Assembly (NCBI GenBank): GCA_947259105.1
Contig: CAMYKU010000003.1
Coordinates: forward strand, 74,404 to 138,403
Length of the DNA: 64,000 nucleotides
Direction: 5' to 3'
Source of the DNA: an uncultured Alphaproteobacteria bacterium
GTDB lineage: Bacteria; Pseudomonadota; Alphaproteobacteria; UBA8366; JADFVY01
The notes below the pieces were generated by a model. It made no database searches, had not been told where the DNA came from, and saw nothing but the letters and a program-made list of their open reading frames with translations. A program made the position numbers and the translations under genes. Shown here one piece after another: positions 732-52,529 of this stretch. Numbering within the stretch: position 1 is the stretch's first letter; the number at the start of each line of letters is the position of its first letter.

Positions 732-821
732 CGGCGGGCGACTCCCTCGAGGCACGGCAAAAAGACAAGGCCGGCGATCCCCGGCCGGCGCCGACCCTAG
801 CACGAAACCGGTGGAAAGGCG

Positions 822-2144
822 CTAGCCCCGAAATCGGTCCGACAGTTCACCCGTGGCGGTGCAGTAGCCGCCGGGGGTGGGGGCACGGCCCTGCCTGAAA
901 AAGTCGGTGAAAGCATATGTCCCCCAACTCTTGCTCTCGGTTGCATGACTGGAGACGAATCTGAGCATCGGTTCGGATTGTCCGCCCACCGGGCATGTCA
1001 TGCGAATGCAGTATTTCAGGTCGGACGCCGCCTGTTCGTCGGGAAGCCACGCAATCGCCCCGTGTTCGAAGAGGTCCGCGACGCCGGCGGCCATGACGAT
1101 GCTGCATCCATGGGAAAGGACCTGGCCGGGTTCTCCGATCAGGGTGGCCAGGCCCGCTTCCGGCGCGTCGGGCGACCATCCGCCGGCCCGGTTCAGCTCC
1201 GCGGCGATCTCCGCTGCGGTCCGGCCTTGCTCGCGCTGCGTGGCGACCCAGCCATCCACAGCTTCCCGCGTTTCCACGCTGGATATAATCGGCCCCGGTA
1301 AAACCGTCAGTACAAATGAGCCGATAAGCACGCCGGCGATCAACATGGCGACCGTCAGCGGCACCAAAATGGCCCTGCCCGGTGTATCCGGCCCCACCCC
1401 ACCAGCCGCGTCGTCAACATAGGCGCGAACCGCAGTGTCCGTCTCCGTCCGGGTGTAGGCCAGACTTCTGCCTATCGTAAACGCAGTCGCGGAGATCACA
1501 AGCGTCAGTGGCAACATCGGATAGGCCACCGCCAGGTCCCAACTGGTCTCTATTCCGTCCACCTCACGCTCCGCGGCCTGCACGAAAATTAGTGTCAGGG
1601 TCAGGCATGAGAAAAGACTTACCACCCCAAGGTGCATGACAGACATGCTGAAGAAACTTCTGCTGAAACGTTTGGTGCCCTGTTCGCGGATACCCTGAAG
1701 AAACTTTGAGGCCGCGCCGCCATTTCTGCGCGCAAGGCGCGGCGCAAACGCGATAAACAATGCGGACGGAACGGTTATCGCAACGGCCCAGCCAGTAAAT
1801 TTCTGCATCGTATCGCCGGACTGGAGCGGCCACCACGCCCATACGACCAACACCACGACGATAAGCGCCAGATTAATCATGCCAAATGAGAAGGCGTAAA
1901 GAAACAGCAGCCATTCGATTTTTGCTGGCTGCTTCGGGCCACTGTCGTAGAGGCTGGCGAGTGACACCGAGCCAGAATAAACCAGCAGGAGAAACCACGC
2001 TAACAACGGCCCTGCAGCTGGCCCGAATAACATGAAGGCGCCCAACGTGACCGCAAGCACAATCAGGATTTCGTAAAGAATTGAGCGGGGCGGCCGCGAC
2101 GACCATTGCGCCAGCGCCCGGTTTTCGATAATTGCGTTGACCAC
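822..2144 (-). CDS. Uncharacterized polytopic membrane protein, paralog P1 (subtype B) of a five-gene tandem family with a conserved Cys-containing C-terminal domain
   Basis: The 440 aa ORF has multiple hydrophobic helices in its N-terminal two thirds. Its C-terminal region is roughly 150 aa with the family motifs WSPDAPEAGLA, GCSIV..AG, YCIRMTCP and a terminal PGGYCTATGELSDRFRG shared with P2-P5. The KQPAKIEWLLFLY block matches P4. Confidence 0.7.
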   Translation of the reverse strand: MVNAIIENRALAQWSSRPPRSILYEILIVLAVTLGAFMLFGPAAGPLLAWFLLLVYSGSVSLASLYDSGPKQPAKIEWLLFLYAFSFGMINLALIVVVLVVWAWWPLQSGDTMQKFTGWAVAITVPSALFIAFAPRLARRNGGAASKFLQGIREQGTKRFSRSFFSMSVMHLGVVSLFSCLTLTLIFVQAAEREVDGIETSWDLAVAYPMLPLTLVISATAFTIGRSLAYTRTETDTAVRAYVDDAAGGVGPDTPGRAILVPLTVAMLIAGVLIGSFVLTVLPGPIISSVETREAVDGWVATQREQGRTAAEIAAELNRAGGWSPDAPEAGLATLIGEPGQVLSHGCSIVMAAGVADLFEHGAIAWLPDEQAASDLKYCIRMTCPVGGQSEPMLRFVSSHATESKSWGTYAFTDFFRQGRAPTPGGYCTATGELSDRFRG

Positions 2145-2248
2145 GGCTTTCCCCTTTCGGAATCAATCGCCATCAGCCTGCCAGCTATCGGCCAGATCTC
2201 CCTCGGTAGTGCGACAGACGCCGCGGCAAATTCTATCTCGAGAGGTAT

Positions 2249-2267
2249 AATCTGACGTTAACGGCCA
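2249..2267 (-). promoter_or_regulatory. Conserved upstream element copy 1 (GGTATAA-N6-GTTAACGG on the + strand), about 105-120 nt upstream of the P1 start
   Basis: Same motif with identical 6-nt spacing at 5253-5271 and 8122-8140, always upstream of the first gene of a paralog pair or singleton. Confidence 0.5.
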
Positions 2268-2277
2268 TCCATACGGG

Positions 2278-3792
2278 TCAGCCCTGGTACGTGTCGGCCA
2301 ACTCACCCTCGGCGGTGCAATAGCCGCCGGGGGACGCCTCGCGCCCCTCCAATAGCAAGTCGGCGTATGCTCTGAAAATCCAGCGCGGGCGTGCGCTGGG
2401 ATGGCTGGAATACAATGCGACGGTGTCCGGCGCATGCCACGCGAGTACGCCGGGGCAGGTCGCCCTGACGCAATAACGAACCGGCGGTATCGGCGTTGCC
2501 TCGTCGTCTTCCTCTTCGGCCTCCTCGGATTCTGATTCCCGGCGGTCGATCTCCTCGGCGAAGCGCCTGGTGGCGTCATGCACCACATGTGTCAACTGAT
2601 CCGATGTTTCGGGCCAGGGCCGGGCTTCCCGTTCGGCCGTATCGATCGTGCCCGCGGTCACCGTCACGGTGCAGTTCCAACGGGCTGTGCCCTCATCCAG
2701 ATCCTCGACCAGATCCGGCAGAAGTCGGGCCAGCCCTTCGCCCGGCGCGTCCGGCGACCAGCGCCCCAGTTCGTTGATCGTCGCGACGATCTCCGCCTCG
2801 GGCCGCCCCGATTGCTGAAAACCGTCCGCCCAGCGAGCCAGTGCCGTCCCGGAATGAGCGCCCGCGGAAAGTGCGAGGACCGGACCCGTCCTCACAACGA
2901 ACATGAAGTGAATGGTCAAGATCAGGGCGGCAAGCGGCGCAGCAAATCCGATGATCGCCACCGCGAGGCGGACAGGCATGCCGACGGCTTTCGTGACGCC
3001 GTGGCCGGGGCCGCCGTCCGGCGGATCATTGGCGGAAAAGCCGCCGTCGCACTGCGCGATGTGCCGCCATGAAACCACGATGCCGGCGGTCGCCAGCAAT
3101 CCCAGTGGCAGGACCGGGTCGGCCAGGAACAGGTCCCACACCGTCGGTATGCGGTCCCACCAAACCATATCGAGAAAATGATAGAACAGGATGGCCGGCC
3201 CGATCACGATAAGCATCAATACCAACGATTCCATAGCGGTAGCCCCGGAAATCCAGAGCGAGAGGACGCGGGACGCGCCGGACCTGTCGTTCAGGCGAGC
3301 GGGTGCGGCGGCGCGCGTCCGTTCGGCCCATGGCCGGATCGCGAAAGCGAGCCCGAGAAGCAGGGCCGCCAGCGCCAGAAGGATCGCCGTCTTCGACAAC
3401 CAGGGCAGATAATCCGCCGGTCCGAACGGAAACGGGGGGCCGTCCGGATCCCCTTCGAAAATTGCGAACACTCGCTCCCAGTCGTATGCGTGGCGGAGCC
3501 AGGTCAGAAGCGCGGCGATGAGAAGCCCCACGACAGCCAACTGGGCGCTGATCGTGCAAAGAGACTGAAGGATGAACTCCCGGAACGCTATTTTGAGCCG
3601 CTTCCATCGATCGCGGTATCCGATCAATGGCCACAGGGAATAGGTCAGATCTACTGCGACAACCGCGCAGAAAGTGATAAGGAAGCCTGCCGGCCAGACG
3701 ACGGCAAAAGCGGCAGCCATCGCCGCGAACAACAGTGCCGTATGCAGCAGCCAGCGCATCGTTTTTCCGTGCCGTTTGTTCGCTGTCCGCAT
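2278..3792 (-). CDS. Uncharacterized polytopic membrane protein, paralog P2 (subtype B). The start is either 3792 or the internal Met at 3759.
   Basis: The 504 aa ORF has the N-terminal block HTALLFAAMAAAF, which matches HTGLLFAAMAAPF of P4. Its C-terminal domain carries WSPDAPGEGLA, NCTVTVTAG, RYCVRATCPG and a terminal SPGGYCTAEGELADTYQG, with an acidic insert EEAEEEDDE. Confidence 0.7.
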   Translation of the reverse strand: MRTANKRHGKTMRWLLHTALLFAAMAAAFAVVWPAGFLITFCAVVAVDLTYSLWPLIGYRDRWKRLKIAFREFILQSLCTISAQLAVVGLLIAALLTWLRHAYDWERVFAIFEGDPDGPPFPFGPADYLPWLSKTAILLALAALLLGLAFAIRPWAERTRAAAPARLNDRSGASRVLSLWISGATAMESLVLMLIVIGPAILFYHFLDMVWWDRIPTVWDLFLADPVLPLGLLATAGIVVSWRHIAQCDGGFSANDPPDGGPGHGVTKAVGMPVRLAVAIIGFAAPLAALILTIHFMFVVRTGPVLALSAGAHSGTALARWADGFQQSGRPEAEIVATINELGRWSPDAPGEGLARLLPDLVEDLDEGTARWNCTVTVTAGTIDTAEREARPWPETSDQLTHVVHDATRRFAEEIDRRESESEEAEEEDDEATPIPPVRYCVRATCPGVLAWHAPDTVALYSSHPSARPRWIFRAYADLLLEGREASPGGYCTAEGELADTYQG

Positions 3793-3797
3793 GCCGG

Positions 3798-5183
3798 CTA
3801 ACCCTGATATTCCGCCGCCAATTCGCCGTCGGTGGTGCAGTAACCGCCGGCTTCGGGCGCGGCGCCGCTGGCGGACATATCCATGAACACGTTGTAGGCC
3901 CAGCCGCGGTTGCGCGACGGGTGGCTGGAGCTGAAGATCACCACCGAATGCGAATGCGCGGCCACCGGGGACGGGCAGGCCAGCCGGATACAGTAGCTTA
4001 TTTCGGGCAGCGGCCGGAAGGCGGCGACATATCCTTCGATCCAGCTCAAGTCCCGCAGCGCCGAATTGTCGGCGGCGCCGGCGTCGACCGTGACCGTGCA
4101 GCCGCTGCCAAGGCCCAGATACTCGAGGTCCTCGCCGAGTTCCGGCAACAGCGCCGGGAGGCCGGCGCCCGGCTGCGGCGTCGTCCAGTTGCCGTGGTCG
4201 CGCAGGTCAGATGCGATCTCGGCGGGGGGCCGGCCCGCCGCCTGCTGCGCTTCGATCCAGTTGTCGGTGGCGCGGGAGATTTCACCCCAGCCGGCGATCA
4301 TCGAGGCCGCGCCGAACGTCCCGATGACCCAGATATGCACGAAATACAGGTACCATCCGTAAGCTGCGGCGGCGCTCCCCAGCACCGCCAGGACCGCCGG
4401 GATTCTTGCCCCGCGGCGCGGCCGGCGCAAGGACGCCAGCGCCGCGGGCTGCATCCGCCGGAACGCCACCGTCAGGACCGCCGCCGCAAGAATGGCCGCT
4501 GCGAAGCCCGGATACTCGTTGGCCAGGTACCCGATATCGACGATCTGCGCCGGGTTGGTCGACCGCAGCAATTCGGGCAGCGCCGTGCCTGTGGCGGCGA
4601 CGCCAAGAAGGCTCACAAGCGCCAGCCCGAGCAATAGCCAGGCCACGGCCGCGGGCCGGAGGAGTCCGGCGCCCTCTGCGCGGACGCGGCGAACGCAGGC
4701 GCCGACGTCTTCGTCGTCGCGCCGCAGCAGGGCGACGGATGCCAGGAACAGGGCGACCGCCCCGACTGCTGCCCCCAACGCAACCGGCGCCATGGCTGCG
4801 AAGGCCAGGGGGAAACCGGGCTCCGCGCCGCCGGCGGCAACGACTTCCCAGCGATAGGCGAGCGGGAACCAGGCGGCGAAACCGAGAATGGCGAAGGCGC
4901 CGACGATGCTGGTGCCGCCGACGAGCTGGGCCAGCATGAACGGCGCCGCCCGCAGTTTCCGCGGCTGTCCGGGGGCTGTCCGCCGAAACGCCGCGACCAG
5001 CGCCCATGTTACATAGGCGGCGGCCACGCCGAGAGGAACAAGGGCGTAATACGGCCGGGAGACCACCGCAGACAGCGGCGCCGCCAGAATCAGGAACAGG
5101 ACCGCGATTTCCAGCAGGGCCAGCACCAGGGACGATTTCGGGCCGGCCGGCCAAACCAGGGACGGTATCGGATCCTTCGCCAT
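3798..5183 (-). CDS. Uncharacterized polytopic membrane protein, paralog P3 (subtype A)
   Basis: The 461 aa ORF has about 8 hydrophobic segments. Its C-terminal domain carries NWTTPQPGAGLPALLPELGED, GCTVTVDAGAADNSALRD, YCIRLACPSPV, SSHPSRNRGW and AGGYCTTDGELAAEYQG. It is the closest paralog of P5 along its full length. Confidence 0.75.
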   Translation of the reverse strand: MAKDPIPSLVWPAGPKSSLVLALLEIAVLFLILAAPLSAVVSRPYYALVPLGVAAAYVTWALVAAFRRTAPGQPRKLRAAPFMLAQLVGGTSIVGAFAILGFAAWFPLAYRWEVVAAGGAEPGFPLAFAAMAPVALGAAVGAVALFLASVALLRRDDEDVGACVRRVRAEGAGLLRPAAVAWLLLGLALVSLLGVAATGTALPELLRSTNPAQIVDIGYLANEYPGFAAAILAAAVLTVAFRRMQPAALASLRRPRRGARIPAVLAVLGSAAAAYGWYLYFVHIWVIGTFGAASMIAGWGEISRATDNWIEAQQAAGRPPAEIASDLRDHGNWTTPQPGAGLPALLPELGEDLEYLGLGSGCTVTVDAGAADNSALRDLSWIEGYVAAFRPLPEISYCIRLACPSPVAAHSHSVVIFSSSHPSRNRGWAYNVFMDMSASGAAPEAGGYCTTDGELAAEYQG

Positions 5184-5252
5184 CGCATCATTACCTTTTG
5201 GCTGTCACAACCGATACGTACAGCAGGAAATGCGGGCTATCCTAACCGGAAA

Positions 5253-5271
5253 GGCATAACCGTGAGTTAAC
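5253..5271 (-). promoter_or_regulatory. Conserved upstream element copy 2 (GGCATAA-N6-GTTAACCG on the + strand), about 70-90 nt upstream of the P3 start
   Basis: Read directly from the P4/P3 intergenic sequence. The 6-nt spacing is conserved. Confidence 0.5.
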
Positions 5272-5286
5272 CGAGCGGCCCTGGCG

Positions 5287-6651
5287 TCAGCCCTGATATT
5301 CCGCCGCCAGTTCGCCGTTCCTCGTGCAATACCCGCCCGGCGCGGCGGCCACGCCTTCGGCGGAGACGTCAGCGTACCAATATTTCCCCCAGCCTTCGGC
5401 CTGGCTGGAACGGTTTGTGAGGAGCAGCAGAGCCGGCGGGGCGCTCCAGGTGAACGGTGGGGCGCATGCCACTGCAATGCAGGCTCTTAATTCCGGTTCG
5501 ATCTCGCCGGCAACAGACGGGCCGTCTCGATCTTGGGTTGGCGGGTCGATGACCCCGGCGGCGATCCGCACCGTGCAGGAATCGGGAAAGGCCTGCCCGG
5601 GGTCCGCGACCAGCGCCCCCAACCCCGCCCCCGGCGCGTCCGGTGTCCAGTGGCCGAACCGGTTCAGCGCCGCAGCCGTTTCCGCATTGGTCCAATCGTC
5701 GTCCTCGTGCGTATTCTCCAGAATCCGCAGCGCTTCGATCACGCCTTTCAGGGCTTTCCTGCCATCCGCCACGCCTTTCGCCGTGATGCTCAGGTGAAAT
5801 GGATAGATGATGAAGAACAGGGCCGCCACGAGGGCGCCGGCCGTCACCGCGGTCAAGACGGAATTGGCTGTCGCGGCCGGTAGCGGCGCGTCCTTCGCGC
5901 CGTCGATGTAGGCCCGAACGACGGCGTCGTCCCCTTCCCGGCTCGTTTCCAGAATCCTGCTCAGCGACAGAATGGCGGCGGCTGCAAGCAGCGAGAACGG
6001 CAAAAACGGATAGGCCGCAATAAGCTCCCAGATTGTCACGATACCGTCGCCGTCACGCCACCACGCCAGTTCGCGCAAATCCGACGGTACCCAGGCTATG
6101 CTGAGCAGGCAGAAGAGTCCCGCGTTGAAAGCCACGTAGCGCAGCCAGTTATCGTGGAACCATCCGAACCCCTTCGCACGGACCCCCTTGAGGAAACGCG
6201 AGGCGGGCCCGCCGCCTTCTCGCGCCAGCAGCGGGGCGAACAGAAGAAACAGGATGGGCGGGAATATCATCGTGGCTGCGATTGCGATCAATGCAGCCAT
6301 GCCGCCGTCCCAAATGTCGCTGGACCTCGTAAGGGGCCGGTATGCCCACAACGGCCATTCCACGATCAAGGCGAACAGCAGCCCCTGCACGGCAATGGGG
6401 ACGGAGATATCGTACAAAATGAACAGCAGACGGACTTTCGCCGGCTGCTTCGGTTTGCCCCGGTCGCGCAGATAGAGGGTCACCAACCACCACAGCACGT
6501 ACATAGAGCCGATGCCGACCGCCGTCAGCGACGCTGTCGCGATCTTCAGCATGAAAAAAGGCGCCGCCATCGCCGCGAACAGCAGACCGGTGTGCACGAC
6601 GCAGCGTCTTGCGAGCACCGAAACGTTCATCTGCCTGCGTTCTTCGCCCAT
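5287..6651 (-). CDS. Uncharacterized polytopic membrane protein, paralog P4 (subtype B). The track ORF is over-extended to 6870; the likely start is the Met at 6651 or 6630.
   Basis: The family-conserved N-terminus begins MNVSVLARRCVVHTGLLFAAMAAPFF. The upstream 73-80 codons are low-complexity (Pro/Ser/Ala-rich) and would overlap the 3' end of P5. The C-terminal domain carries HWTPDAPGAGLGAL, SCTVRIAAG, ACIAVACAPP and APGGYCTRNGELAAEYQG. Confidence 0.7.
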   Translation of the reverse strand: MGEERRQMNVSVLARRCVVHTGLLFAAMAAPFFMLKIATASLTAVGIGSMYVLWWLVTLYLRDRGKPKQPAKVRLLFILYDISVPIAVQGLLFALIVEWPLWAYRPLTRSSDIWDGGMAALIAIAATMIFPPILFLLFAPLLAREGGGPASRFLKGVRAKGFGWFHDNWLRYVAFNAGLFCLLSIAWVPSDLRELAWWRDGDGIVTIWELIAAYPFLPFSLLAAAAILSLSRILETSREGDDAVVRAYIDGAKDAPLPAATANSVLTAVTAGALVAALFFIIYPFHLSITAKGVADGRKALKGVIEALRILENTHEDDDWTNAETAAALNRFGHWTPDAPGAGLGALVADPGQAFPDSCTVRIAAGVIDPPTQDRDGPSVAGEIEPELRACIAVACAPPFTWSAPPALLLLTNRSSQAEGWGKYWYADVSAEGVAAAPGGYCTRNGELAAEYQG

Positions 6652-6664
6652 ATATCGCCGCCCG

Positions 6665-8053
6665 CTAGCCCTGATACGATTCCGCCAGCCCGCCGGTCTC
6701 GGTGCAATAGCCGCCGGGCTCGAAGGCCCGGCCGTTGCCGAATAAGTCCATGGATAAATGGGTGATCCAATACCGGTTGCGCGAGGGGTGGCTGGACTCG
6801 AGGACCACGACGGAGTGCTCGTGCCAGACAACGGGGGAAGGGCAAGCCATCCGGATGCAATAACCAACATCGGTCAGCGGCCGGATATCGGCTTCGAATT
6901 CACGGATCCAGTCCCGATCCCGGAGTGCCGCACTGTCGACGACGCCGGCATCAATCGTAACGGAACAGCCGCTGGCAAGATTCAATTCCCCCAGGTTCTC
7001 GCCTGGCCCAGGCAGGAACGCGGCGAGGCTGGCGTCGGGTTCGGCCGAAGTCCAGTTGCCATGCGCGCGCAGGTCCGCGGCGATCTCATCAGGGCTTCTG
7101 CCTGCTTCACTCTGCGCCGCGACCCAGTCGGTCGTGGCGCCGGATACAACCTTCCATCCCATAATCATGTCCACCGGTCCGAGCGCCGCAATCATGCCAA
7201 TATGCACGACGTACAGGAACCAGCCTAAGGATATGCCGCTACCGCCAAGGGCCGCCAGCACGGCCGGTGCGCGGCTGCCCGCCACGGGGCGCGTCTCGCG
7301 CAGGCACGCCAGCGCCGCGGGCTGGGCCCGCCGGAACGCCACCAGCAGGACCGCCGACGCAAGGATGGCGACTGGTATGGCCGGGAACTCGCCCGCCACG
7401 AACCACCCGCCGACGTCGCGATACGGGTTCGCCTCCTGCAGCAGGAGCGACAGGGCACCTACGCTGGCATTCACGCCGCCAACGCTGGCAATGGCGAAAC
7501 CGAGCAGCAGCGTCGCCGCCGCGGCCGGCAGTAACGACCGCACCCGGTCCGGCCGGAGCGCGCAATCGTCGCCGCTCTCGCCGTCGCGCCGCAGGAAGAA
7601 GGACGAGGCAAGGAGGAATATCGCGACCGAGACGACAATCAGGGCGAAATCGATGGGCGCCAGGAATGAATGACGGGTGGGGTCGGTGTGACCATACTCG
7701 ACGACGTCGTTAACTTTGCGGCGGTATGCGGCCTGTAGCCAGATGCCAAGAACCAACGAGCCGGCGCCACGAGCAGCCAGCCAGGCGCTGGCAAGCTGGG
7801 CCAGCGAAAACAAACCCGCGCGCAGTTTCGATGGCAGTTCACGCGACGGCCGCCAGTACGCGGCGACCAGCGACCAGATTACGTAGGCAGCGATCAGACC
7901 GACAGGCCCAAGGATCAACAGATCGTTGGAAACGCCCATAAAAAACGGCCCTGCCAACACCAGAAAGACGATCACCGTTTCCAGCAGCGCCCAGCCGTAT
8001 GCGGGGGCCGGGGCGGTCACTGTGCCGGGGCTCTGCGAATGATCGGCTGCCAT
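6665..8053 (-). CDS. Uncharacterized polytopic membrane protein, paralog P5 (subtype A)
   Basis: The 462 aa ORF is collinear with P3. It carries NWTSAEPDASLAAFLPGPGE, GCSVTIDAGVVDSAALRD, YCIRMACPSPVVWHEHSVVVLESSHPSRNRYW and EPGGYCTETGGLAESYQG. Confidence 0.75.
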   Translation of the reverse strand: MAADHSQSPGTVTAPAPAYGWALLETVIVFLVLAGPFFMGVSNDLLILGPVGLIAAYVIWSLVAAYWRPSRELPSKLRAGLFSLAQLASAWLAARGAGSLVLGIWLQAAYRRKVNDVVEYGHTDPTRHSFLAPIDFALIVVSVAIFLLASSFFLRRDGESGDDCALRPDRVRSLLPAAAATLLLGFAIASVGGVNASVGALSLLLQEANPYRDVGGWFVAGEFPAIPVAILASAVLLVAFRRAQPAALACLRETRPVAGSRAPAVLAALGGSGISLGWFLYVVHIGMIAALGPVDMIMGWKVVSGATTDWVAAQSEAGRSPDEIAADLRAHGNWTSAEPDASLAAFLPGPGENLGELNLASGCSVTIDAGVVDSAALRDRDWIREFEADIRPLTDVGYCIRMACPSPVVWHEHSVVVLESSHPSRNRYWITHLSMDLFGNGRAFEPGGYCTETGGLAESYQG

Positions 8054-8121
8054 CTCGGTTCGGTCTCCGGGCTGTTGCGCCGAACAATCGCGGCGGAACT
8101 GCGCCCGGTACCCTAGCGATA

Positions 8122-8140
8122 AAGGTATAACTCCCGGTTA
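8122..8140 (-). promoter_or_regulatory. Conserved upstream element copy 3 (GGTATAA-N6-GTTAACCG on the + strand), about 70-90 nt upstream of the P5 start
   Basis: Read directly from the intergenic sequence between the patatin gene and P5. Confidence 0.5.
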
Positions 8141-8262
8141 ACCGGCGGTTGCCGCATGCCCCGTTGCCGCCTCCGCACCTCCGTCACCGCTGCCCGCCGT
8201 CGTACATCCCCTTTGCTTGCTCTCCTGAAAAAGCGCCCGGAAAGGAAAGTTGTGGCGGCGCG

Positions 8263-9189
8263 TCACGGCACGATTTCCCTCAGGGCCGGGAGCATTCGCG
8301 CCACCGACCGTCGTCCCTCGGCAATGGATTCGTCCGCCCGGTCGAATTCCATAAGGCCGATCTCGCTCAGCTTGGGCATCAGCATCACATGGGGTGGTTC
8401 GCCCGCCAGGCGGCTGCGCGTGATCTGGTCCTGCATGATATTGATCGCGCCGGCGATCACGTCGAAATATCCTGGTCCGGCCGAACGCTTTCCAAGCAAC
8501 TGGGCGGCGATTGCGTTCACGCCGTTCCTGATCCCCGCGGGAAGGTCGCCGGACAGCTTGGCCAGGAAATCGGTCTCTGGTTCCGGCGCGGCACTCTCGC
8601 GGATGGCCAGCCGTTTCGGGATACCATGGCGTCCGACGATATCGCCGTTGAGATTCACTGCGATGACGATCTCGGCGCCCAGGGCGCGGCAGGCCGACAC
8701 CGGGATCGGATTCACGACCCCGCCGTCGATCAGGCACCATTCACCCTTGCGCACCGGGCTGAATATCCCCGGCAGGGCGATGGATGCGCGTACGGCTTCG
8801 ACCATGGACCCCTCGCGCAGCCAGATCTCACGCCCCGAAACGAGGTCCGTGGCGACGGCGACGAACGGCTTGGGAAGATTCTCGATGGCCGTATCTTCGT
8901 GGCGTTCGCGAAAGAATTTCATCAGCCGGCGGCCTTCGATCAGGCCGCCACTGGTGAGGCTGACGTCCATGAAGCGCACGATATCCCGCCAGTTGATCGA
9001 GCGCGCCCATTTGTCCAGGATTTCCAGTTCCCCGGCGACGTAGGCCGCTCCGACAAGCGCGCCGATGGAGCTGCCACAAACGATGTCAGGCTCGATGCCG
9101 GCCTCGCCAAGCGCCTGAATCACCCCGATATGCGACCATCCGCGCGCGGACCCGCTGCCAAGCGCCAGCCCGATCCGGGGGCGGCTCAC
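8263..9189 (-). CDS. Patatin-like phospholipase (RssA-like). The track ORF extends to 9324, but the likely start is the GTG or TTG near 9189-9192, about 10 codons before the glycine-rich loop.
   Basis: It has the oxyanion-hole motif GSGSARG and the nucleophile motif GSSIG (GxSxG), plus a downstream DGG(V) Asp motif. Its overall length and order match bacterial patatin/RssA proteins. Confidence 0.8.
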   Translation of the reverse strand: MSRPRIGLALGSGSARGWSHIGVIQALGEAGIEPDIVCGSSIGALVGAAYVAGELEILDKWARSINWRDIVRFMDVSLTSGGLIEGRRLMKFFRERHEDTAIENLPKPFVAVATDLVSGREIWLREGSMVEAVRASIALPGIFSPVRKGEWCLIDGGVVNPIPVSACRALGAEIVIAVNLNGDIVGRHGIPKRLAIRESAAPEPETDFLAKLSGDLPAGIRNGVNAIAAQLLGKRSAGPGYFDVIAGAINIMQDQITRSRLAGEPPHVMLMPKLSEIGLMEFDRADESIAEGRRSVARMLPALREIVP

Positions 9190-9456
9190 CAACGCGGGCT
9201 CCGGAACTGCCGCAGGCCGGGGCCGAGGACCGCCGCACCCTCGGAAAGGCCGACGATACCGGCCTCCGCAACCGCGAGGGCACAAAACGGCGGATCGGCG
9301 AAGCCAGGCAAAGGCAAACCCCATTCAACTCGGAACCGGTAACGGCACGCTATACCACAGCGTGCATCGGCGCGACAGCGGATCGGATCAGGCCCTGCCC
9401 GGCAAGTCGGGCTTGAAAGCCGCGCGCGTCGATGCCGTCGACATCGAGGTCTTCGC

Positions 9457-10242: not shown

Positions 10243-10436
10243 GCACTGCACCCTTCGTTGCGGCGGCCCCAATCAACCTGCCGACGCCAGCCGGCGCGGC
10301 GCCGTCGGCGGAGCCAGGCTGCCGTGATTCTTCATTGCGGGGAAACGATTTAACACGGGCCAAGAGAAAGTGATAGCGGATGCCGCCATATCCTGCGGCG
10401 CACCCCTTGACTCTCATCCAATAACGCGCAATTCAT

Positions 10437-10712
10437 GCCTAGTGGTGTGTATCAGACATATGGCACCCTTGGGACGGTCTTGCGCGTTCATCCGGCGAGG
10501 CGCGGGGCGCGCCGCGATACCGGCGCATCGCAAGCGGCGCGCAACGCGGCCGGTGGGCGCTCAAGGCCGCCCTTTGGGTCACGTTTCCCGCCCCCTCGGT
10601 GCGTCGGGCGCGCTTGACGATGCTCCAGCATCGCCTGCGCGCACCCTCCTGCCGAGGAGGCGGGAAACGCGATCCCATGGGCGCCATATGTCTAGTACAC
10701 ACCACTAGCCCA
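10437..10712. repeat. About 276 bp imperfect palindromic element bounded by 27 bp terminal inverted repeats (CCTAGTGGTGTGTAYYAGACATATGGC). It is MITE-like or a large regulatory hairpin.
   Basis: The segment at 10437-10463 and the reverse complement of 10686-10712 match at 24 of 27 positions. Internal arms are also partly self-complementary, and there is a central GATGCTccAGCATC palindrome at about 10619. The element produces mirror-image pseudo-ORFs on both strands, each ending ...HMSxTHH. Confidence 0.5.
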
Positions 10713-10760: not shown

Positions 10761-11474
10761 ATGCCACTCGCAAACGAAAAAACGACGGCCGGGCGCGACG
10801 ACGGAAGCTTGCGAGTCCTGAACGGCGAGGCGGCAGACCGGCTGGCGGCGATATCGCGGGTCCTCACCGTGCCGGCCGGCCGGCCGGTCATGATGGAGGG
10901 CGCGCCGGCAACGGAACTGTACAGCGTATCCCAGGGCATCGTCAGCGTCTTCAAGCTGATGCCGGACGGCCGGCGGCAGATCACCGGCTTCCTGTATCCC
11001 GGCAGTTTTCTAGGCGTCACGTTCAACGCTGAGACGACCTACGCTTATAGTGCCGACGCCGTAACGGCGGTGACGCTGCGGGCGTATCCGCGCCGCGACT
11101 TCGAGCGGCTGCTCGACGAGGTGCCAGGCGTGCGTCGCGCGTTCATCGCCGCAATGGCTGACGAGTTGACCGAGGCGCAGGACCGCATGCTGCTGCTGGC
11201 CCACAGGTCGGCGAGCGAACGGCTGGCCTGTTTCCTGCTGACCCTGGCCGGCCGCCAGGCCGGCAAGGGGGGGGAGCCGGTCGACACCGTTTACATTCCG
11301 ATGCGCGGCAGCGATATCGCCGATTATCTGGGTCTGACCGCCGAAACGGTGAGCCGCACGCTGGCGGTGTTCCGCCGCAAGGGAATCGTCCATGCGGAAA
11401 GGGGCGGCAGCATCGGAATCCTGGACCGCGGCGCGCTGGAGGCGCTGGCCGGACCACTGTCGCGCCACATCTGA
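10761..11474 (+). CDS. Crp/Fnr family transcriptional regulator
   Basis: It has an N-terminal cNMP-binding beta-roll (VPAGRPVMMEGAPATELYSVSQGIVSV) and a C-terminal HTH (SDIADYLGLTAETVSRTLAVFRRKGIV). It is divergent from the TauE/patatin/paralog cluster. Confidence 0.8.
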   Translation: MPLANEKTTAGRDDGSLRVLNGEAADRLAAISRVLTVPAGRPVMMEGAPATELYSVSQGIVSVFKLMPDGRRQITGFLYPGSFLGVTFNAETTYAYSADAVTAVTLRAYPRRDFERLLDEVPGVRRAFIAAMADELTEAQDRMLLLAHRSASERLACFLLTLAGRQAGKGGEPVDTVYIPMRGSDIADYLGLTAETVSRTLAVFRRKGIVHAERGGSIGILDRGALEALAGPLSRHI

Positions 11475-11645
11475 CCCGGTGCCATCCTGGTGAGAAGCCC
11501 GCTCTAGCCGCGCCGCACTGCATATTCCGATCTCACCCGCCGCCCGGGTCACCGGGATTTGAGCGCTCGTGACGTCCGCCGGGACAGTTCCGTGAACAAT
11601 TCCTGCCACGATCGGAAACAGCACGAACATGAAGGAGCAACTGTC

Positions 11646-12107
11646 ATGCTTGTCCGCCCGTTTCTGGCCACGGCTTTGATCTCCATCGGCCTCTTGTCCC
11701 ATGTCGCCGTTGCGCCGGCGGCCGCCGCGGATCCCGTCTCTACAGGCACGTTCGGCAATCTTGCCGTCAGCGGCTACGACCCGGTCGCCTACTTCGCGCA
11801 AGGCAAGCCGGTCGAGGGACGCAGTGTCCTGGAATACGAATGGAACGACGCCACCTGGCGCTTTTCCAGCGCGGAGAACCTCGCGGCGTTCAAGGCGAGC
11901 CCGGAGGCCTATGCACCGCAGTATGGCGGCTATTGCGCCTGGGCGGTCAGCCAGGGCTACACCGCAAAGAGCGATCCCGATGCCTGGCGCATCGTCGACG
12001 GCAAGCTCTATCTGAACTACAGCAAGGACATCCAGAAGCGCTGGGCGCAGGATATCCCCGGCAATATCGCCAAGGCCGACGCCAACTGGCCCAAGGTTCT
12101 GGAATAG
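11646..12107 (+). CDS. Secreted YHS-like domain protein (GYDPVAYF ... GGYCAW motif family)
   Basis: It has a signal peptide MLVRPFLATALISIGLLSHVAVAPAAAA. The motifs VSGYDPVAYF and YGGYCAWAV are typical of the YHS-domain-like periplasmic protein family. The track ORF start at 11559 is probably over-extended. Confidence 0.55.
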   Translation: MLVRPFLATALISIGLLSHVAVAPAAAADPVSTGTFGNLAVSGYDPVAYFAQGKPVEGRSVLEYEWNDATWRFSSAENLAAFKASPEAYAPQYGGYCAWAVSQGYTAKSDPDAWRIVDGKLYLNYSKDIQKRWAQDIPGNIAKADANWPKVLE

Positions 12108-16998: not shown

Positions 16999-17164
16999 GT
17001 GTGCTCCGGGCTCTTCCGGAGTGTGCGCCGATTCCGCGTCTCACACCGCGGCGCGCGGCCATAGGTGCGGTTCTTTCCGACCGCATGTTGATCCTGATCA
17101 AGGCATGGCGACCGGTTTTCCGGCAGACTGCCGTCGCGTAAGGCTTCCACGATTGGAGGATGCC

Positions 17165-32927: not shown

Positions 32928-33083
32928 GGTCGGCTCCTCCTGCTATCCGGGCGACCGCGGCAAGTGCCGTCCGCAACGGGCGGAAGCGCCTCTGCGCCAA
33001 GCGACCCGATCGCGACGTATATTTGGCGGCTCTTTATTAAGGCCAGGTGAACGTGGCTAAGAAACGGAGCAATCGAGCCATTT

Positions 33084-49478: not shown

Positions 49479-50699
49479 ATGGCCGAACGCAGCGGTCCGC
49501 TCAAGGGTGTGAAGGTTATCGAGCTGGCTCATATCATGGCGGGGCCGGTCTGCGGTCTGATGCTTGCCGATATGGGCGCGGACGTCATCAAGGTCGAGAA
49601 AATGCCGGGCGGCGACGACACGCGCCGGTCTGTGCCGCCGGATATCGATGGCGAATCCGCGGCCTTCATGATGATGAATCGCAACAAGCGCGGGATCGCA
49701 GTCAATCTTAAAGACGGGCAGGGCAAGGCGGTGGTGCGCCGCCTGCTACGCGATGCCGACGTGGTGATCGAGAACTACCGCCGCGATACCATGGCGCGGC
49801 TGGGGCTTGGATACGACGTGCTGCAGAAGAGCAATCCCGGCCTGATCTACTGCGAGATTTCCGGGTTCGGTCGCACCGGACCCTATGCCGACCGCGGCGG
49901 CTTTGACCTGATCGCACAGGGCATGTCCGGTCTGATGAGTATTACCGGCGAGGGCCCGGGCCGCCCGCCGGTCAAAGTCGGTGCGCCGGTGAGTGACATC
50001 ACCGCCGGCATTCTCGGGGCGCTGGGCGTGGTTTCCGCTTACATCCACAAGATGCGGACGGGCGAGGGGCAGCGTGTCGATACCTCGTTGTTCGAAGCTG
50101 CCATTGTCCACACCTACTGGCAGTCGGCCATCGCGCTCGCGACCGGCGAATCGCCGGGGCCGATGGGCTCCGCCCACCCGCTGAACGCACCCTATCAGGC
50201 GCTGCGCACCAAGGATGGCTGGGTCAATGTCGGCGCCGCGAACCAGGCCAACTGGCTGCGCCTTCTGGACGCCCTGGATGCACGGAGCCTGGCCGAGGAC
50301 AAGCGCTTCATGGAAAACGCCGACCGTATGGCCCATCTCGACGAACTCGCGGAAGCGCTGGAAGCGCATCTGGCCGCCCGCACGACCGATGAGTGGCTGG
50401 CCGCGTTCGAGGCGGCGGGCCTGCCGGCCGGGCCGGTTCTCGACATTGCCGAGATGCACCGCGACCCGCAGGTTCTGGCCCGCAAGATGGTGACCGAGGC
50501 GGCTCATGCGCGCCTCGGACCGGTCAAAACGCTGGGCCTCCCGGTCAAGTTTTCCGGGACTCCCGGCGGTGTGGTCATGGGGGCGCCGACCTATGGCCAG
50601 CATACGGTCGAAGTGCTGGCCGAGTACGGTTACGGCACCGATGAGATCGAGGCGCTGGCCGCATCCGGTGCGGTCGCGCTGCAGACGGCTGCCGATTAA
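49479..50699 (+). CDS. CoA-transferase family III (CaiB/BaiF) protein
   Basis: The motifs LKGVKVIELAHIMAGPVCG, VENYRRDTMARLGLGYD and the catalytic Asp region GGFDLIAQGMSGLMS are present. Confidence 0.85.
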   Translation: MAERSGPLKGVKVIELAHIMAGPVCGLMLADMGADVIKVEKMPGGDDTRRSVPPDIDGESAAFMMMNRNKRGIAVNLKDGQGKAVVRRLLRDADVVIENYRRDTMARLGLGYDVLQKSNPGLIYCEISGFGRTGPYADRGGFDLIAQGMSGLMSITGEGPGRPPVKVGAPVSDITAGILGALGVVSAYIHKMRTGEGQRVDTSLFEAAIVHTYWQSAIALATGESPGPMGSAHPLNAPYQALRTKDGWVNVGAANQANWLRLLDALDARSLAEDKRFMENADRMAHLDELAEALEAHLAARTTDEWLAAFEAAGLPAGPVLDIAEMHRDPQVLARKMVTEAAHARLGPVKTLGLPVKFSGTPGGVVMGAPTYGQHTVEVLAEYGYGTDEIEALAASGAVALQTAAD

Positions 50700-50846
50700 C
50701 CCGATCTTAAACCTCGCTGCCCCATCATCCCCGAACGAGGATCGGCTGCGCCGCCGCGCGGCGTAGCGGGTTTCCGCGCGTATCGAAGGCCGACCGAGCT
50801 GGTCGAAGAGTGGGCGCGCCATGGTGTTCGGGCTGGAGCCGAAAGA

Positions 50847-52529
50847 ATGAAACTGACGATCAGACTGAAACTCGTGTTCATGGGATCAGTAGCGGTCGTC
50901 GCACTGATCGTGCTGGTTGCGGTTTCCTGGAAAGCGAGCGACGCGGTCGGAAGCGCGACCAGGGGCAACCAGGTCATGCTGCAGGAGGCCCAGACGCTTG
51001 GCGACCTCCGCGTTTCCACCCTAGAGCTGGTGCTTGCCGCCGCGGACTCAATCGTCGACGCGGACGAAGGCTACGTGTACGACGAACGCCTGGAGAGGAT
51101 GGACCGGGGCATTACCGCGCTGCGCGAAAACCAGGTAATCGTGGATACCGTGGCCAGACGCGCGAACAAACCCGAGCTGGCGGCCGAAATAATTGAACTG
51201 ACCAATGTCGCCGACCGCGTGATCCGGGTCGAACTCGTGCAGGCGATCGAGAGCCGTGCCGGCAAGGATGCCTTCGCCCGGTTCGATGACGACATCGACG
51301 AATATGGTGAAGGCCTCGTCGATCTGTTGGCCGAACTCCAGGACCTGGTGGTGTTGGATCTGGCCCGCTCCGGCGCAGCGTTGAATCAGGAGGTCGTGAG
51401 TTCGTCGCAGATTGCGCTGGCCGTGGGCGCGCTTTTCGCCGGCGTTCTCGTCATTGTCATGTCTTTCGTCGGCGTCACCATAACCCGGCCGATTTCACGT
51501 CTCACCCTGGTGATGCGTGAGCTTGCGGGCGGCAATACCAATATAGCGGTATCCGGGCAGGACGGCACCGACGAGGTGTCCGACATGGCTCGTGCCGTGC
51601 AGGTGTTCAAGGACAATGCCGTCGAGAAACGGCAACTCGAGGACGCACAGACAGCGACCCAGCAGCGTGCCTCCGAAGAAAAACGCCAGACTGTGGTCGA
51701 GATGGCCGACCGTTTCGAGTTGCAGGTCAAGAAGGTCGTCGACGGTGTATCCTCTGCCGCCACCGAAATGCAGGTTACGGCGCAGCAGATGTCGGCGACC
51801 GCCGAGGAGACCAGCCGCCAGTCGGCAAACGTGGCGACCGCTTCCGAGGAGGCCGCCGCCAATGTGCAGACGGTGGCGGCGACGGCCGAAGAACTGTCGG
51901 CCTCGATCGCCGAGATCGGGCGGCAGGTCATGCAGTCGGCGAAGATCGCCCAGAACGCGGTGGCCGAGGCCGAGTCGACCAATGAAACCGTATTAGGCCT
52001 GTCGGAAGCCGCCAGCAAGATCGGCGACGTGGTAAAGCTGATCAACGACATTGCCGGGCAGACCAACCTGCTGGCGTTGAACGCAACGATCGAGGCGGCC
52101 CGCGCCGGCGAGGCCGGCAAGGGTTTCGCGGTCGTAGCCCAGGAGGTCAAGAACCTGGCCAACCAGACCGCCCGGGCGACCGAGGAGATCTCGCAGCAGA
52201 TCACGTCCGTCCAGGAGGAGACCAACGATGCCGTCGGCGCGATCGAGAAGATCCGGGCGATCATCGGCGAGGTCAACGAGATCGCGACGACGATCTCCTC
52301 TGCCGTCGAGGAGCAGGGTATCTCCACCCAGGAGATCGCCCGCAACGTCCAGCAGGCGGCCCGCGGCACACAGGACGTCAACCAGAATATCGAGAGCGTT
52401 TCCAGGGCGGTCGGCGAAACAGGCACGGCGGCAGGCCAGGTCCTCGGCGCCTCGCAGGAAATGGCGCGTCAGGCCGAGGGATTGCGCCGCGAAGTCGAAA
52501 AGTTCCTCGGCGAGGTACGCAACGCCTGA
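50847..52529 (+). CDS. Methyl-accepting chemotaxis protein (HAMP plus MCP signalling domain)
   Basis: It has an N-terminal TM segment and periplasmic region, a second TM, a HAMP domain, and the highly conserved MCP signalling domain ([35 protein letters not shown]). Confidence 0.85.

What the first reader, a model, noticed from the sequence alone, without database searches (positions are those of the whole stretch)
2249..8140. Shared cis element GGYATAA-N6-GTTAACSG upstream of P1, P3 and P5 defines three co-regulated transcription units
The element has three occurrences: GAGAGGTATAAtctgacGTTAACGG at 2249-2267, AAAGGCATAAccgtgaGTTAACCG at 5253-5271, and AAAGGTATAActcccgGTTAACCG at 8122-8140. 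All have identical 6-nt spacing. Each lies 70-120 nt upstream of the first gene of a unit (P1 alone, P3-P2, P5-P4), whereas P2 and P4 start within 5-40 nt of the preceding stop. In gene orientation the motif reads CSGTTAAC-N6-TTATRCC. The 6-nt gap is too short for a sigma70 -35/-10 pair, so this is more likely a transcription-factor site than a promoter core. A degenerate reversed copy (GGTAACggcacgcTATACC at 9338-9356) sits between patatin and the second TauE gene. The divergently encoded Crp/Fnr regulator at 10761-11474 is an obvious candidate binder, though GTTAAC is not a canonical FNR box.
Basis: seen in the sequence. Interest (0 to 1): 0.7.

Follow-up and report, generated by a model that had tools for sequence, protein, structure and literature searches.

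The report
Conserved activator-type promoter before paralogous membrane genes
The repeated motif is real and marks three conserved promoters upstream of a tandem family of unknown membrane-protein genes. It most resembles a binding box for the alphaproteobacterial regulator CtrA followed by a -10 element, not a site for the neighbouring Crp/Fnr protein, so it is ordinary gene regulation attached to an unusual gene family.

Summary
The motif is confirmed. GGYATAA-N6-GTTAACSG occurs exactly three times (2244-2264, 5253-5273, 8124-8144), with none expected by chance.

In gene orientation it is part of a 33-nt module: GTTAAC-N5-(G)TTAKRCCTYT-N5-TAGRRT. The module starts 88-89 nt before the start codons of P5 and P3, and the same distance before a remnant ATG upstream of P1.

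The module is kept upstream of orthologous genes in all eight other distinct sites examined, some degenerate. Those proteins are only 43-60% identical, and the spacers and flanks are not conserved. No RNA structure is predicted.

The core is TTAA-N7-TTA(K). It lies where published CtrA-activated promoters carry TTAA-N7-TTAA(C): from about -38 to -24, with A at -11.

A chemotaxis-receptor gene in the same window and four of its orthologues keep the same box and spacing.

The neighbouring regulator is FixK/FNR-like, so TTGA-N6-TCAA is expected. One homologue keeps the motif in a locus with no Crp/Fnr gene.

The three-unit reading is supported in silico. The Crp/Fnr assignment is not. CtrA binding is inferred, not shown.

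The parts
8110..8142 (-). P5 promoter module GTTAACCGGGAGTTATACCTTTATCGCTAGGGT. TTAA core 8138-8141, second half-site TTAT 8127-8130, CCTTT 8121-8125, -10-like TAGGGT 8110-8115. Predicted start of transcription near 8103.
   Evidence: (45.9 bits). Orthologous sites are in L001, L004 and L010.
5239..5271 (-). P3 promoter module GTTAACTCACGGTTATGCCTTTCCGGTTAGGAT. -10-like TAGGAT 5239-5244. Predicted start of transcription near 5232.
   Evidence: (44.2 bits). Orthologous sites are L005 11422, L011 9912 and L008 9914.
2230..2262 (-). P1 promoter module GTTAACGTCAGATTATACCTCTCGAGATAGAAT. -10-like TAGAAT 2230-2235. Predicted start of transcription near 2223. A remnant ATGGCGATTGATTCC lies 89 nt after the first G and resembles the P3-type start ATGGCGAAGGATCC.
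   Evidence: (39.4 bits).
6665..8053 (-). P5, 462 aa, first gene of unit P5-P4. Member of a rare family with no Pfam or NCBIfam hit.
5287..6651 (-). P4, 454 aa from ATG 6651. It starts 13 nt after the P5 stop and has no motif.
3798..5183 (-). P3, 461 aa, first gene of unit P3-P2.
2278..3792 (-). P2, 504 aa. It starts 5 nt after the P3 stop and has no motif.
822..2144 (-). P1, 440 aa (GTG start), a single-gene unit.
766..789 (-). Terminator-like GC hairpin plus T-run after P1. This is the only such site found at a boundary of the cluster.
   Evidence: The same arrangement follows the last P gene in L001, L004, L005, L010 and L011.
50695..50728 (+). Related box ATTAAC-ccgatc-TTAAACCTCG...CATCAT, starting about 150 nt upstream of the methyl-accepting chemotaxis protein gene 50847-52529. 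The TTAA-N7-TTAA match is perfect.
   Evidence: Conserved upstream of orthologues in L062, L063, L064 and L066.
9336..9356 (+). Degenerate inverted copy GGTAAC-N6-CTATACC next to the patatin gene. Probably a decayed relic, not a functional site.
10761..11474 (+). Crp/Fnr-family regulator (FixK/FnrL/Fnr-like), divergent from the cluster.

Best explanation
Each of the three sites is an activator-dependent sigma-70-type promoter serving one transcription unit of the P gene cluster (P5-P4, P3-P2, P1).

**The module.** In gene orientation it reads GTTAAC-N5-(G)TTAKRCCTYT-N5-TAGRRT. TAGRRT is the -10 hexamer (TAnnnT). No -35 hexamer sits at the proper distance. In its place are two TTAA-type half-sites one helical turn apart (TTAA-N7-TTAK), which would span about -38 to -24.

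**The proposed factor.** This is the sequence and position of a CtrA box. CtrA is the OmpR-family response regulator of Alphaproteobacteria. Phosphorylated CtrA, or a factor with the same specificity, would bind the box and recruit RNA polymerase. The three units would then switch on together, along with chemotaxis and motility genes that carry the same box.

**Downstream genes.** P4 and P2 follow by translational coupling or co-transcription.

**What is shown and what is inferred.**
- Shown: the sequence, its conservation, its fixed distance to start codons, the absence of RNA structure, and the presence of the same box at a chemotaxis gene.
- Inferred: the transcription start, activation rather than repression, and CtrA as the binder.

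**Confidence.** I put about 0.85 on 'conserved promoter plus regulator box' and about 0.5 on CtrA specifically. The figure given is for the combined statement.
For: **Conservation across 11 non-redundant P-gene sites from 8 loci (proteins 43-60% identical).**
- TTAA is kept in 11 of 11 sites, TTA in 10, CCTTT in 9-11, T28 and A29 in 10, and T33 in 9.
- The N5 spacers and the flanks are not conserved.
- L065 adds a twelfth site.

**Position and specificity.**
- The module starts 88-91 nt before the start codon in window P5 and P3, L001, L005b, L010 and L011, 83 nt before it in L004, and 72 or 87 nt before it in L005a, depending on the ATG.
- It is present only before the first gene of a unit. 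Genes with 5-54-nt gaps lack it.
- A 33-nt matrix finds only the three P sites in the window at 10 bits or more. The best of 20 shuffles scored 14.9.

**Agreement with published CtrA promoters.**
- The consensus is TTAA-N7-TTAAC (PMC7200025, PMC4046655).
- In activated Caulobacter promoters the 5' nucleotide of the full site lies near -35, for example -39 at ctrA P2 (PMC4287350).
- In R. sphaeroides the site ends 23-24 nt from the mapped start and A is invariant at -11 (PMC6180460).
- Setting the A of TAGRRT to -11 puts the box at -38 to -24/-23.
- L011 has a perfect TTAA-N7-TTAAC on the opposite strand.

**The same box at motility-type genes.**
- The MCP gene at 50847 carries TTAAC-N6-TTAA plus a -10-like hexamer. 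Orthologues that are 83, 71, 69 and 55% identical keep it.
- A whole-collection scan with the extended pattern found only four hits in high-GC genomes. Two were P loci. One was upstream of an MCP gene in an Acetobacteraceae genome, and one upstream of a PilZ-like gene.
- About 0.1-0.2 chance hits are expected per 100 Gbp of such DNA.
Against: - No transcript or binding data exist for this uncultured organism. The start site, and hence the -38 to -24 placement, rests on reading TAGRRT as the -10.
- In nearly all P sites the second half-site is TTAG or TTAT, not TTAA.
- The P sites also conserve RCCTYT. This is not part of the CtrA consensus and is absent from the MCP sites, so a second or different factor may be involved.
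- I could not check whether this genome encodes CtrA. Some Rhodospirillales lack it (PMC2877005).
- In the complete genome CP070634.1 the stringent extended pattern occurs only at the P locus.
- The TTAA cores are self-complementary, so a dimer that recognises a dyad cannot be excluded.
- The two non-P hits in other genomes match by construction of the search pattern. With a few hundred Gbp of high-GC DNA searched, they are only suggestive.
Confidence: 0.5

Rival explanations
1. The box is the operator of a different regulator that recognises the dyad TTAAC-N5-GTTAA. That regulator could be dedicated to the P genes or be another local factor. It might act as a repressor over the -35 and spacer region, with RCCTYT as part of its site.
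For: - GTTAAC is itself a palindrome, and TAAC-N5-GTTA is an inverted repeat. It also fits the generic T-N11-A pattern of LysR-type sites (my own knowledge).
- The P sites conserve extra positions (G1, C6, RCCTYT) that the MCP sites lack.
- The stringent pattern is unique to the P locus in the complete genome CP070634.1.
Against: - Among the regulators I know, TTAA half-sites 11 bp apart at -38 to -24 are what CtrA uses.
- The same core precedes MCP orthologues.
- No other regulator gene is conserved beside the cluster. Only Crp/Fnr is, plus a GntR gene next to an unrelated sugar-acid cluster.
- L065 keeps the motif in a locus with no regulator gene among the called genes that have a Pfam hit.
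Confidence: 0.22
2. The divergently encoded Crp/Fnr protein (10761-11474) binds the motif and co-regulates the three units.
For: - The Crp/Fnr gene is syntenic with the P cluster in L001-L007, L010 and L011.
- In L008, which lacks it, the second half-site of both motif copies has decayed.
- From my own knowledge, some family members such as PrfA and CprK do recognise TTAA-type half-sites, though with N6 between the TTAA cores.
Against: - The protein is FixK/FnrL/Fnr-like with the E--SR recognition helix, which predicts TTGA-N6-TCAA. No such box lies at the P promoters. The only perfect one in the window is at 17088-17101.
- The site centre would lie near -31 rather than at -41.5 or -61.5.
- L065 keeps a full motif with no Crp/Fnr gene in the fetched locus.
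- The same core motif precedes MCP genes far from any Crp/Fnr gene.
Confidence: 0.07
3. The module is the promoter of an alternative sigma factor rather than an activator box plus a sigma-70 -10. The conserved blocks would be read directly by that sigma.
For: - There are three conserved blocks at fixed spacing, and no TTGACA-like hexamer lies 16-18 nt from TAGRRT.
- An 'AAC' in the upstream block is common in ECF-type -35 elements (my own knowledge).
Against: - The distance from GTTAAC to TAGRRT (21 nt) fits no sigma family I know.
- The region 16-17 nt after AAC is not conserved.
- TAnnnT is the housekeeping -10 signature.
- None of the fetched loci shows a sigma or anti-sigma gene beside the cluster.
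Confidence: 0.08
4. The similarity has no function of its own. It is sequence left over from the tandem duplication that made the paralogues, or it is a transcribed RNA element in the 5' leader.
For: - The three units are clearly products of duplication.
- The P1 unit keeps a remnant of a P3-type start codon region.
- The motif lies only 13 nt after the upstream stop codon, so it is probably also transcribed by read-through.
Against: - The paralogues are only 23-48% identical in protein, so neutral intergenic DNA would be randomised.
- Conservation is confined to discrete blocks with free spacers. It is repeated across orthologues in other genomes.
- RNAalifold predicts no pairs.
- Rfam has no match.
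Confidence: 0.04

Closest known systems
CtrA-activated promoters of Alphaproteobacteria (Caulobacter ctrA P2 and class II flagellar genes; Rhodobacter sphaeroides fla2 promoters)
   Same: - There are two TTAA half-sites 11 bp apart, matching the consensus TTAA-N7-TTAAC.
- The box replaces the -35. Its 5' end lies near -38/-39 and its 3' end 23-24 nt from the start.
- A lies at -11 in a TAnnnT hexamer.
- The same box sits at a chemotaxis-receptor gene in the same genome and its relatives (PMC4287350, PMC6180460, PMC7200025).
   Different: - The second half-site is TTAG or TTAT in nearly all P sites.
- There is an extra conserved RCCTYT.
- The target genes are an uncharacterised membrane-protein family, not known CtrA targets.
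- CtrA binding and even the presence of ctrA in this genome are untested.
Pho box / PhoB-type promoters (OmpR-family direct repeats replacing the -35; my own knowledge)
   Same: An 18-bp unit made of two repeats with 11-bp phasing lies 9-10 bp upstream of the -10, and there is no -35 hexamer.
   Different: The half-site sequence is different (CTGTCAT in the Pho box, GTTAA here). Nothing in the locus links it to phosphate.
FNR/FixK boxes (TTGAT-N4-ATCAA) of Crp/Fnr regulators
   Same: The site is bipartite and of similar length. A FixK/FNR-like regulator gene lies next to the cluster.
   Different: - The half-site is TTAA, not TTGA.
- The spacing is one base longer.
- The centre lies near -31, not -41.5.
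- The motif persists in a locus with no Crp/Fnr gene.

Membership tests
CtrA-box (CtrA-activated) promoter | Full site TTAA-N7-TTAA(C) | tested here: met
   - The first TTAA is kept in 11 of 11 P sites and the second TTA in 10 of 11. That is 8 of 9 consensus positions in most sites.
- L011 matches 9 of 9 on the opposite strand.
- The MCP sites match TTAA-N7-TTAA exactly in 4 of 5 orthologues.
- Caveat: the fourth base of the second half-site is G or T in most P sites.
CtrA-box (CtrA-activated) promoter | The box overlaps the -35: 5' end near -39, 3' end 23-24 nt from the start, A at -11 | tested here: inconclusive
   The spacing from the box to the conserved TAnnnT hexamer gives -38 to -24/-23 if the A of TAGRRT is -11. 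This matches PMC4287350 and PMC6180460. The transcription start is predicted, not mapped.
CtrA-box (CtrA-activated) promoter | The same box occurs at motility or chemotaxis genes of the same organism (shared regulon) | tested here: met
   - The box precedes the MCP gene 50847-52529 and four orthologues.
- The extended pattern also lies upstream of an MCP gene (L031) and a PilZ-like gene (L021/L034) in other alphaproteobacterial genomes.
- No flagellar genes were available to test.
CtrA-box (CtrA-activated) promoter | The genome encodes CtrA, CtrA~P binds the site, and expression depends on it | not testable with these tools
   - ctrA is not in the window.
- The genome of origin could not be searched.
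- Some Rhodospirillales lack ctrA (PMC2877005).
FNR/FixK-type Crp/Fnr box | Palindrome TTGA-N6-TCAA (TTGAT-N4-ATCAA) | tested here: not met
   There is no such box at or near the three sites. The only exact match in the window is at 17088-17101.
FNR/FixK-type Crp/Fnr box | The motif co-occurs with the regulator gene | tested here: inconclusive
   The gene is adjacent in most syntenic loci. However, L065 keeps a full motif and L008 keeps degenerate ones with no Crp/Fnr gene in the fetched DNA. The regulator could be encoded elsewhere in those genomes.
Canonical sigma-70 core promoter | TTGACA-like -35 lying 16-18 nt upstream of a TATAAT-like -10 | tested here: not met
   - The -10-like TAGRRT is present (T28 and A29 in 10 of 11 sites, T33 in 9 of 11).
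- The -35 position falls in the unconserved spacer.
- The consensus scan reports nothing at the three sites.
Structured cis-regulatory RNA (riboswitch or leader) | Conserved secondary structure with covariation, or a match to a described family | tested here: not met
   There is no Rfam match in the window. RNAalifold on 11 sequences predicts no pairs.

The most novel reading that the evidence does not exclude
The P genes are a previously unnoticed regulatory target class. They form a very rare, tandemly expanded family of polytopic membrane proteins with a cysteine-bearing C-terminal domain, with no Pfam or NCBIfam family and no informative match among solved PDB structures. In this reading they are wired into the CtrA (motility and developmental) programme of a group of uncultured Rhodospirillales. 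The P-specific TTAK-RCCTYT extension would mark a composite site where CtrA acts together with a second, unknown factor.
Probability: 0.2. Interest if true: 0.5.

Novelty: new member of a known kind. Interest (0 to 1): 0.3.

Why it matters
If correct, the result gives a handle on a protein family about which nothing is known. Only 16 sequence clusters turned up among 5.8 billion proteins.

The genes would be expressed from three separately driven but identically controlled promoters, probably together with chemotaxis functions. That narrows the conditions under which to look for a phenotype.

The result also adds well-footprinted examples of CtrA-type promoters from Rhodospirillales, where few have been described. 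For genome annotation, it shows that the neighbouring Crp/Fnr gene should not be assumed to regulate the cluster. As regulatory biology it is not surprising.

Tried and rejected
- **The search for related loci with the paralogue alignment failed** because no stretch was conserved enough. I used homologue look-ups instead.
- **The window's own P5 protein is not in the contig index**, so the source genome could not be explored beyond the window.
- **The metagenome scan with the extended pattern** returned only chance hits in AT-rich DNA or duplicates of loci already found. L052 (57% GC) lies between minus-strand ORFs and was judged chance.
- **The TTAA-N7-TGAAC hit at 33037** has no -10 at the proper spacing, and the ORF after it does not look like a real protein. 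It was judged chance.
- **Other promoter types were considered by eye and rejected on spacing:** sigma-54, sigma-28, ECF, and MerR-type promoters with a long spacer, since the spacer contains no dyad.
- **No regulator candidates in the window.** Pfam scans of 20 other window ORFs found no ctrA, flagellar or response-regulator gene.
- **The Magnetospirillum CtrA paper (PMC3370617) is not held**.
- **Folding the conserved region after P1** gave no significant structure overall.
Full report
**What is in the sequence.** Positions 822-8053 of the minus strand carry five paralogous genes:
- P1, 822-2144
- P2, 2278-3792
- P3, 3798-5183
- P4, 5287-6651
- P5, 6665-8053

They are 23-48% identical to one another. 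None has a Pfam or NCBIfam match. The sites lie upstream of P1, P3 and P5. P2 and P4 start 5 and 13 nt after the preceding stop codon and have no motif.

**The motif is part of a larger module.** I aligned the three upstream regions in gene orientation. This shows three blocks: GTTAAC, then 5 free bases, then (G/A)TTATRCCTYT, then 5 free bases, then TAGAAT, TAGGAT or TAGGGT. The module starts 88-89 nt before the start codons of P3 and P5. In the P1 unit the same distance leads to a remnant ATGGCGATTGATTCC that resembles the P3-type start ATGGCGAAGGATCC. The single-gene P1 unit therefore probably arose from a two-gene unit by deletion.

**Conservation in other genomes.**
- The family is very rare, with 16 clusters among 5.8 billion proteins. 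The one named member is from a Rhodospirillales metagenome-assembled genome.
- Most contigs that carry homologues are syntenic. The order is Crp/Fnr, TauE, one to three P genes, a terminator-like hairpin, TauE, TauE, and a PALP enzyme.
- In every locus the module precedes the first P gene of a unit and is absent where genes are 5-54 nt apart.
- Across 11 non-redundant sites, TTAA is kept in 11, the second TTA in 10, CCTTT in 9-11, T28 and A29 in 10, and T33 in 9. The spacers and flanks are not conserved.
- T28, A29 and T33 form the TAnnnT signature of a -10 hexamer.
- A homologue in an unrelated context (L065) still carries GTTAACcaacgCTTAGACCTTTatgggAAATAAT.
- With a 33-nt matrix, only the three P sites in the window reach 10 bits. 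They score 39-46 bits, and the best of 20 shuffles scored 14.9.

The paralogues and orthologues are far too diverged for neutral intergenic similarity to survive. The blocks are therefore under selection.

**What it is not.**
- **Not a described RNA family or a structured leader.** Rfam finds nothing, and RNAalifold predicts no pairs.
- **Not a canonical sigma-70 promoter.** The position 17 nt upstream of TAGRRT falls in the unconserved spacer, and the consensus scan reports nothing there.
- **Probably not a Crp/Fnr site.** The neighbouring regulator scores best against FixK, FnrL and Fnr models. It has the E--SR recognition helix, which from established knowledge reads TTGA-N6-TCAA. The only such box in the window is TTGATCCTGATCAA at 17088-17101. 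L065 keeps the motif with no Crp/Fnr gene in the fetched locus.

**What it resembles.** The core is TTAA-N7-TTA(K), two half-sites one helical turn apart. The published consensus for the alphaproteobacterial response regulator CtrA is TTAA-N7-TTAAC (PMC7200025, PMC4046655).
- In Caulobacter, activating full sites have their 5' nucleotide near the -35, for example -39 at ctrA P2 (PMC4287350).
- In Rhodobacter sphaeroides, with mapped starts, the site ends 23-24 nt from the start and A is invariant at -11 (PMC6180460).
- If the A of TAGRRT is -11, the P box spans -38 to -24/-23. That is the same architecture.
- L011 has a perfect TTAA-N7-TTAAC on the opposite strand.

**Independent support from a chemotaxis gene.** A search for the CtrA consensus with one mismatch found six matches in the window, against about one expected. 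Three are the P sites. Two are the two strands of a single site, ATTAACccgatcTTAAACCTCG at 50695-50716, about 150 nt upstream of a methyl-accepting chemotaxis protein gene. The sixth, at 33037, was judged chance (see the rejected leads).
- Orthologues of that gene are 83, 71, 69 and 55% identical. All keep (G/A)TTAAC-N6-(T/C)TAA followed, at the same distance give or take one base, by a -10-like hexamer.
- One of these orthologues is in the sample, and probably the organism, whose P sites are degenerate (L008 and L066).
- I scanned 596 Gbp of reference genomes with the extended pattern. It gave 21 hits, 17 of them in AT-rich genomes. The four high-GC hits were two P loci, a site upstream of an MCP gene in an Acetobacteraceae genome, and a site upstream of a PilZ-like gene.
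- Chance expectation in such DNA is about 0.1-0.2 per 100 Gbp, so these last two hits are suggestive only.

Chemotaxis and motility genes are classic CtrA targets. In the Rhodospirillales and Rhodobacterales examined so far, CtrA is not essential (PMC4046655). In Rhodospirillales its reported roles are motility in Magnetospirillum (Greene et al. 2012, cited in PMC3692519) and swarmer-to-cyst differentiation in Rhodospirillum centenum (PMC4046655).

**Most likely mechanism.** There are three activator-dependent promoters, one per unit. A CtrA-type dimer bound over the -35 region would recruit RNA polymerase to a TAGRRT -10, giving leaders of about 50 nt. P4 and P2 would be expressed by coupling to P5 and P3. 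Only 13 nt separate each upstream stop codon from the next module, and the only terminator-like hairpin follows P1. Read-through from upstream promoters is therefore also likely, and the internal promoters would add to it.

**Caveats.**
- Nothing here is experimental.
- I could not establish that the genome encodes CtrA, and some Rhodospirillales lack it (PMC2877005).
- The second half-site is TTAG or TTAT rather than TTAA in most P sites.
- The P sites conserve RCCTYT, which the MCP sites lack and the CtrA consensus does not include. This remains unexplained and leaves room for a second or different factor.
- The TTAA cores are self-complementary, so sequence alone cannot separate direct-repeat recognition from dyad recognition.

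**Verdict on the finding.** The idea of three co-regulated units is supported in silico. The proposed binder is not supported. The 'reversed copy' at 9336-9356 has no half-site cores, no -10 and no downstream gene. It may be a relic connected with the patatin gene, which is inserted at this position only in this genome.

**Novelty and interest.** This is ordinary promoter and operator biology: new instances of a known kind of site. It is attached to a gene family that is itself unknown. The P5 model (pLDDT 77.8) shows about nine membrane helices and a C-terminal alpha/beta domain with four invariant cysteines. It has no informative match in the PDB.

Noticed in passing
window 10439-10708: A palindromic element of about 270 nt, with 36-nt terminal inverted arms and nested 32-nt arms. 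It is the only copy in the window. It is inserted in the divergent Crp/Fnr-TauE intergenic region, just after the apparent Crp/Fnr promoter (CTTGAC-N17-CAATTC at about 10404-10434). The same intergenic region is about 270 nt shorter in syntenic loci. It looks like a miniature inverted-repeat mobile element.
   Followed up: partly
window 766-825 (minus strand); also L001, L004, L005, L010 and L011 before the TauE gene that follows the last P gene: A conserved sequence sits at the end of the cluster. The stop codon lies inside CTAGCGC, an imperfect complement GTGCTAG(G/C) follows about 17 nt later, and then comes a GC-rich hairpin with a T-run. It could be a terminator, possibly with a second hairpin. 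Folding the window copy gave no significant overall structure.
   Followed up: partly
window 17088-17101: A perfect FNR/FixK box, TTGATCCTGATCAA, is the only exact TTGA-N6-TCAA match in the window. It lies in the region that in syntenic loci carries cytochrome genes. It is a more plausible target than the P promoters for the FixK/FNR-like regulator at 10761-11474.
   Followed up: no
window 822-8053 and homologues P0002-P0016: The P family is extremely rare, with 16 clusters in 5.8 billion proteins and no Pfam or NCBIfam hit. The AlphaFold model (pLDDT 77.8) has about nine membrane helices plus a C-terminal alpha/beta domain. That domain has four invariant cysteines and an invariant PGGYCT...G.L...YQG end. 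No informative PDB fold match was found.
   Followed up: partly
window 8263-9324: A patatin-like phospholipase gene lies between TauE and the P5 promoter only in this genome. In syntenic loci the motif starts 14-45 nt after the TauE stop codon. The annotated N-terminal 50 residues or so are arginine-rich and may not be real. A GTG near 9193 could be the true start.
   Followed up: no
window 2144-2175: A remnant of a P3-type start (ATGGCGATTGATTCC) sits at the canonical +89 position of the P1 promoter. It opens a short out-of-frame ORF that overlaps the P1 start. This suggests that an upstream gene was deleted from a former two-gene unit.
   Followed up: partly
L021 341-372 (minus strand) and L034 8737-8768; L031 4277-4308: The extended motif TTAAC-N6-TTAKRCCTYT-N5-TAGNNT occurs in two other alphaproteobacterial genomes. 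In one it lies upstream of a 128-aa PilZ-like gene (RREHRR...DWSLGG) just after a tRNA gene. In the other, an Acetobacteraceae genome, it lies upstream of a methyl-accepting chemotaxis protein gene.
   Followed up: partly
window 11559-12107: A gene for a YHS-domain (seleno)protein family member follows the Crp/Fnr gene. This pairing is conserved in nearly all syntenic loci, which suggests the two genes form a unit.
   Followed up: no
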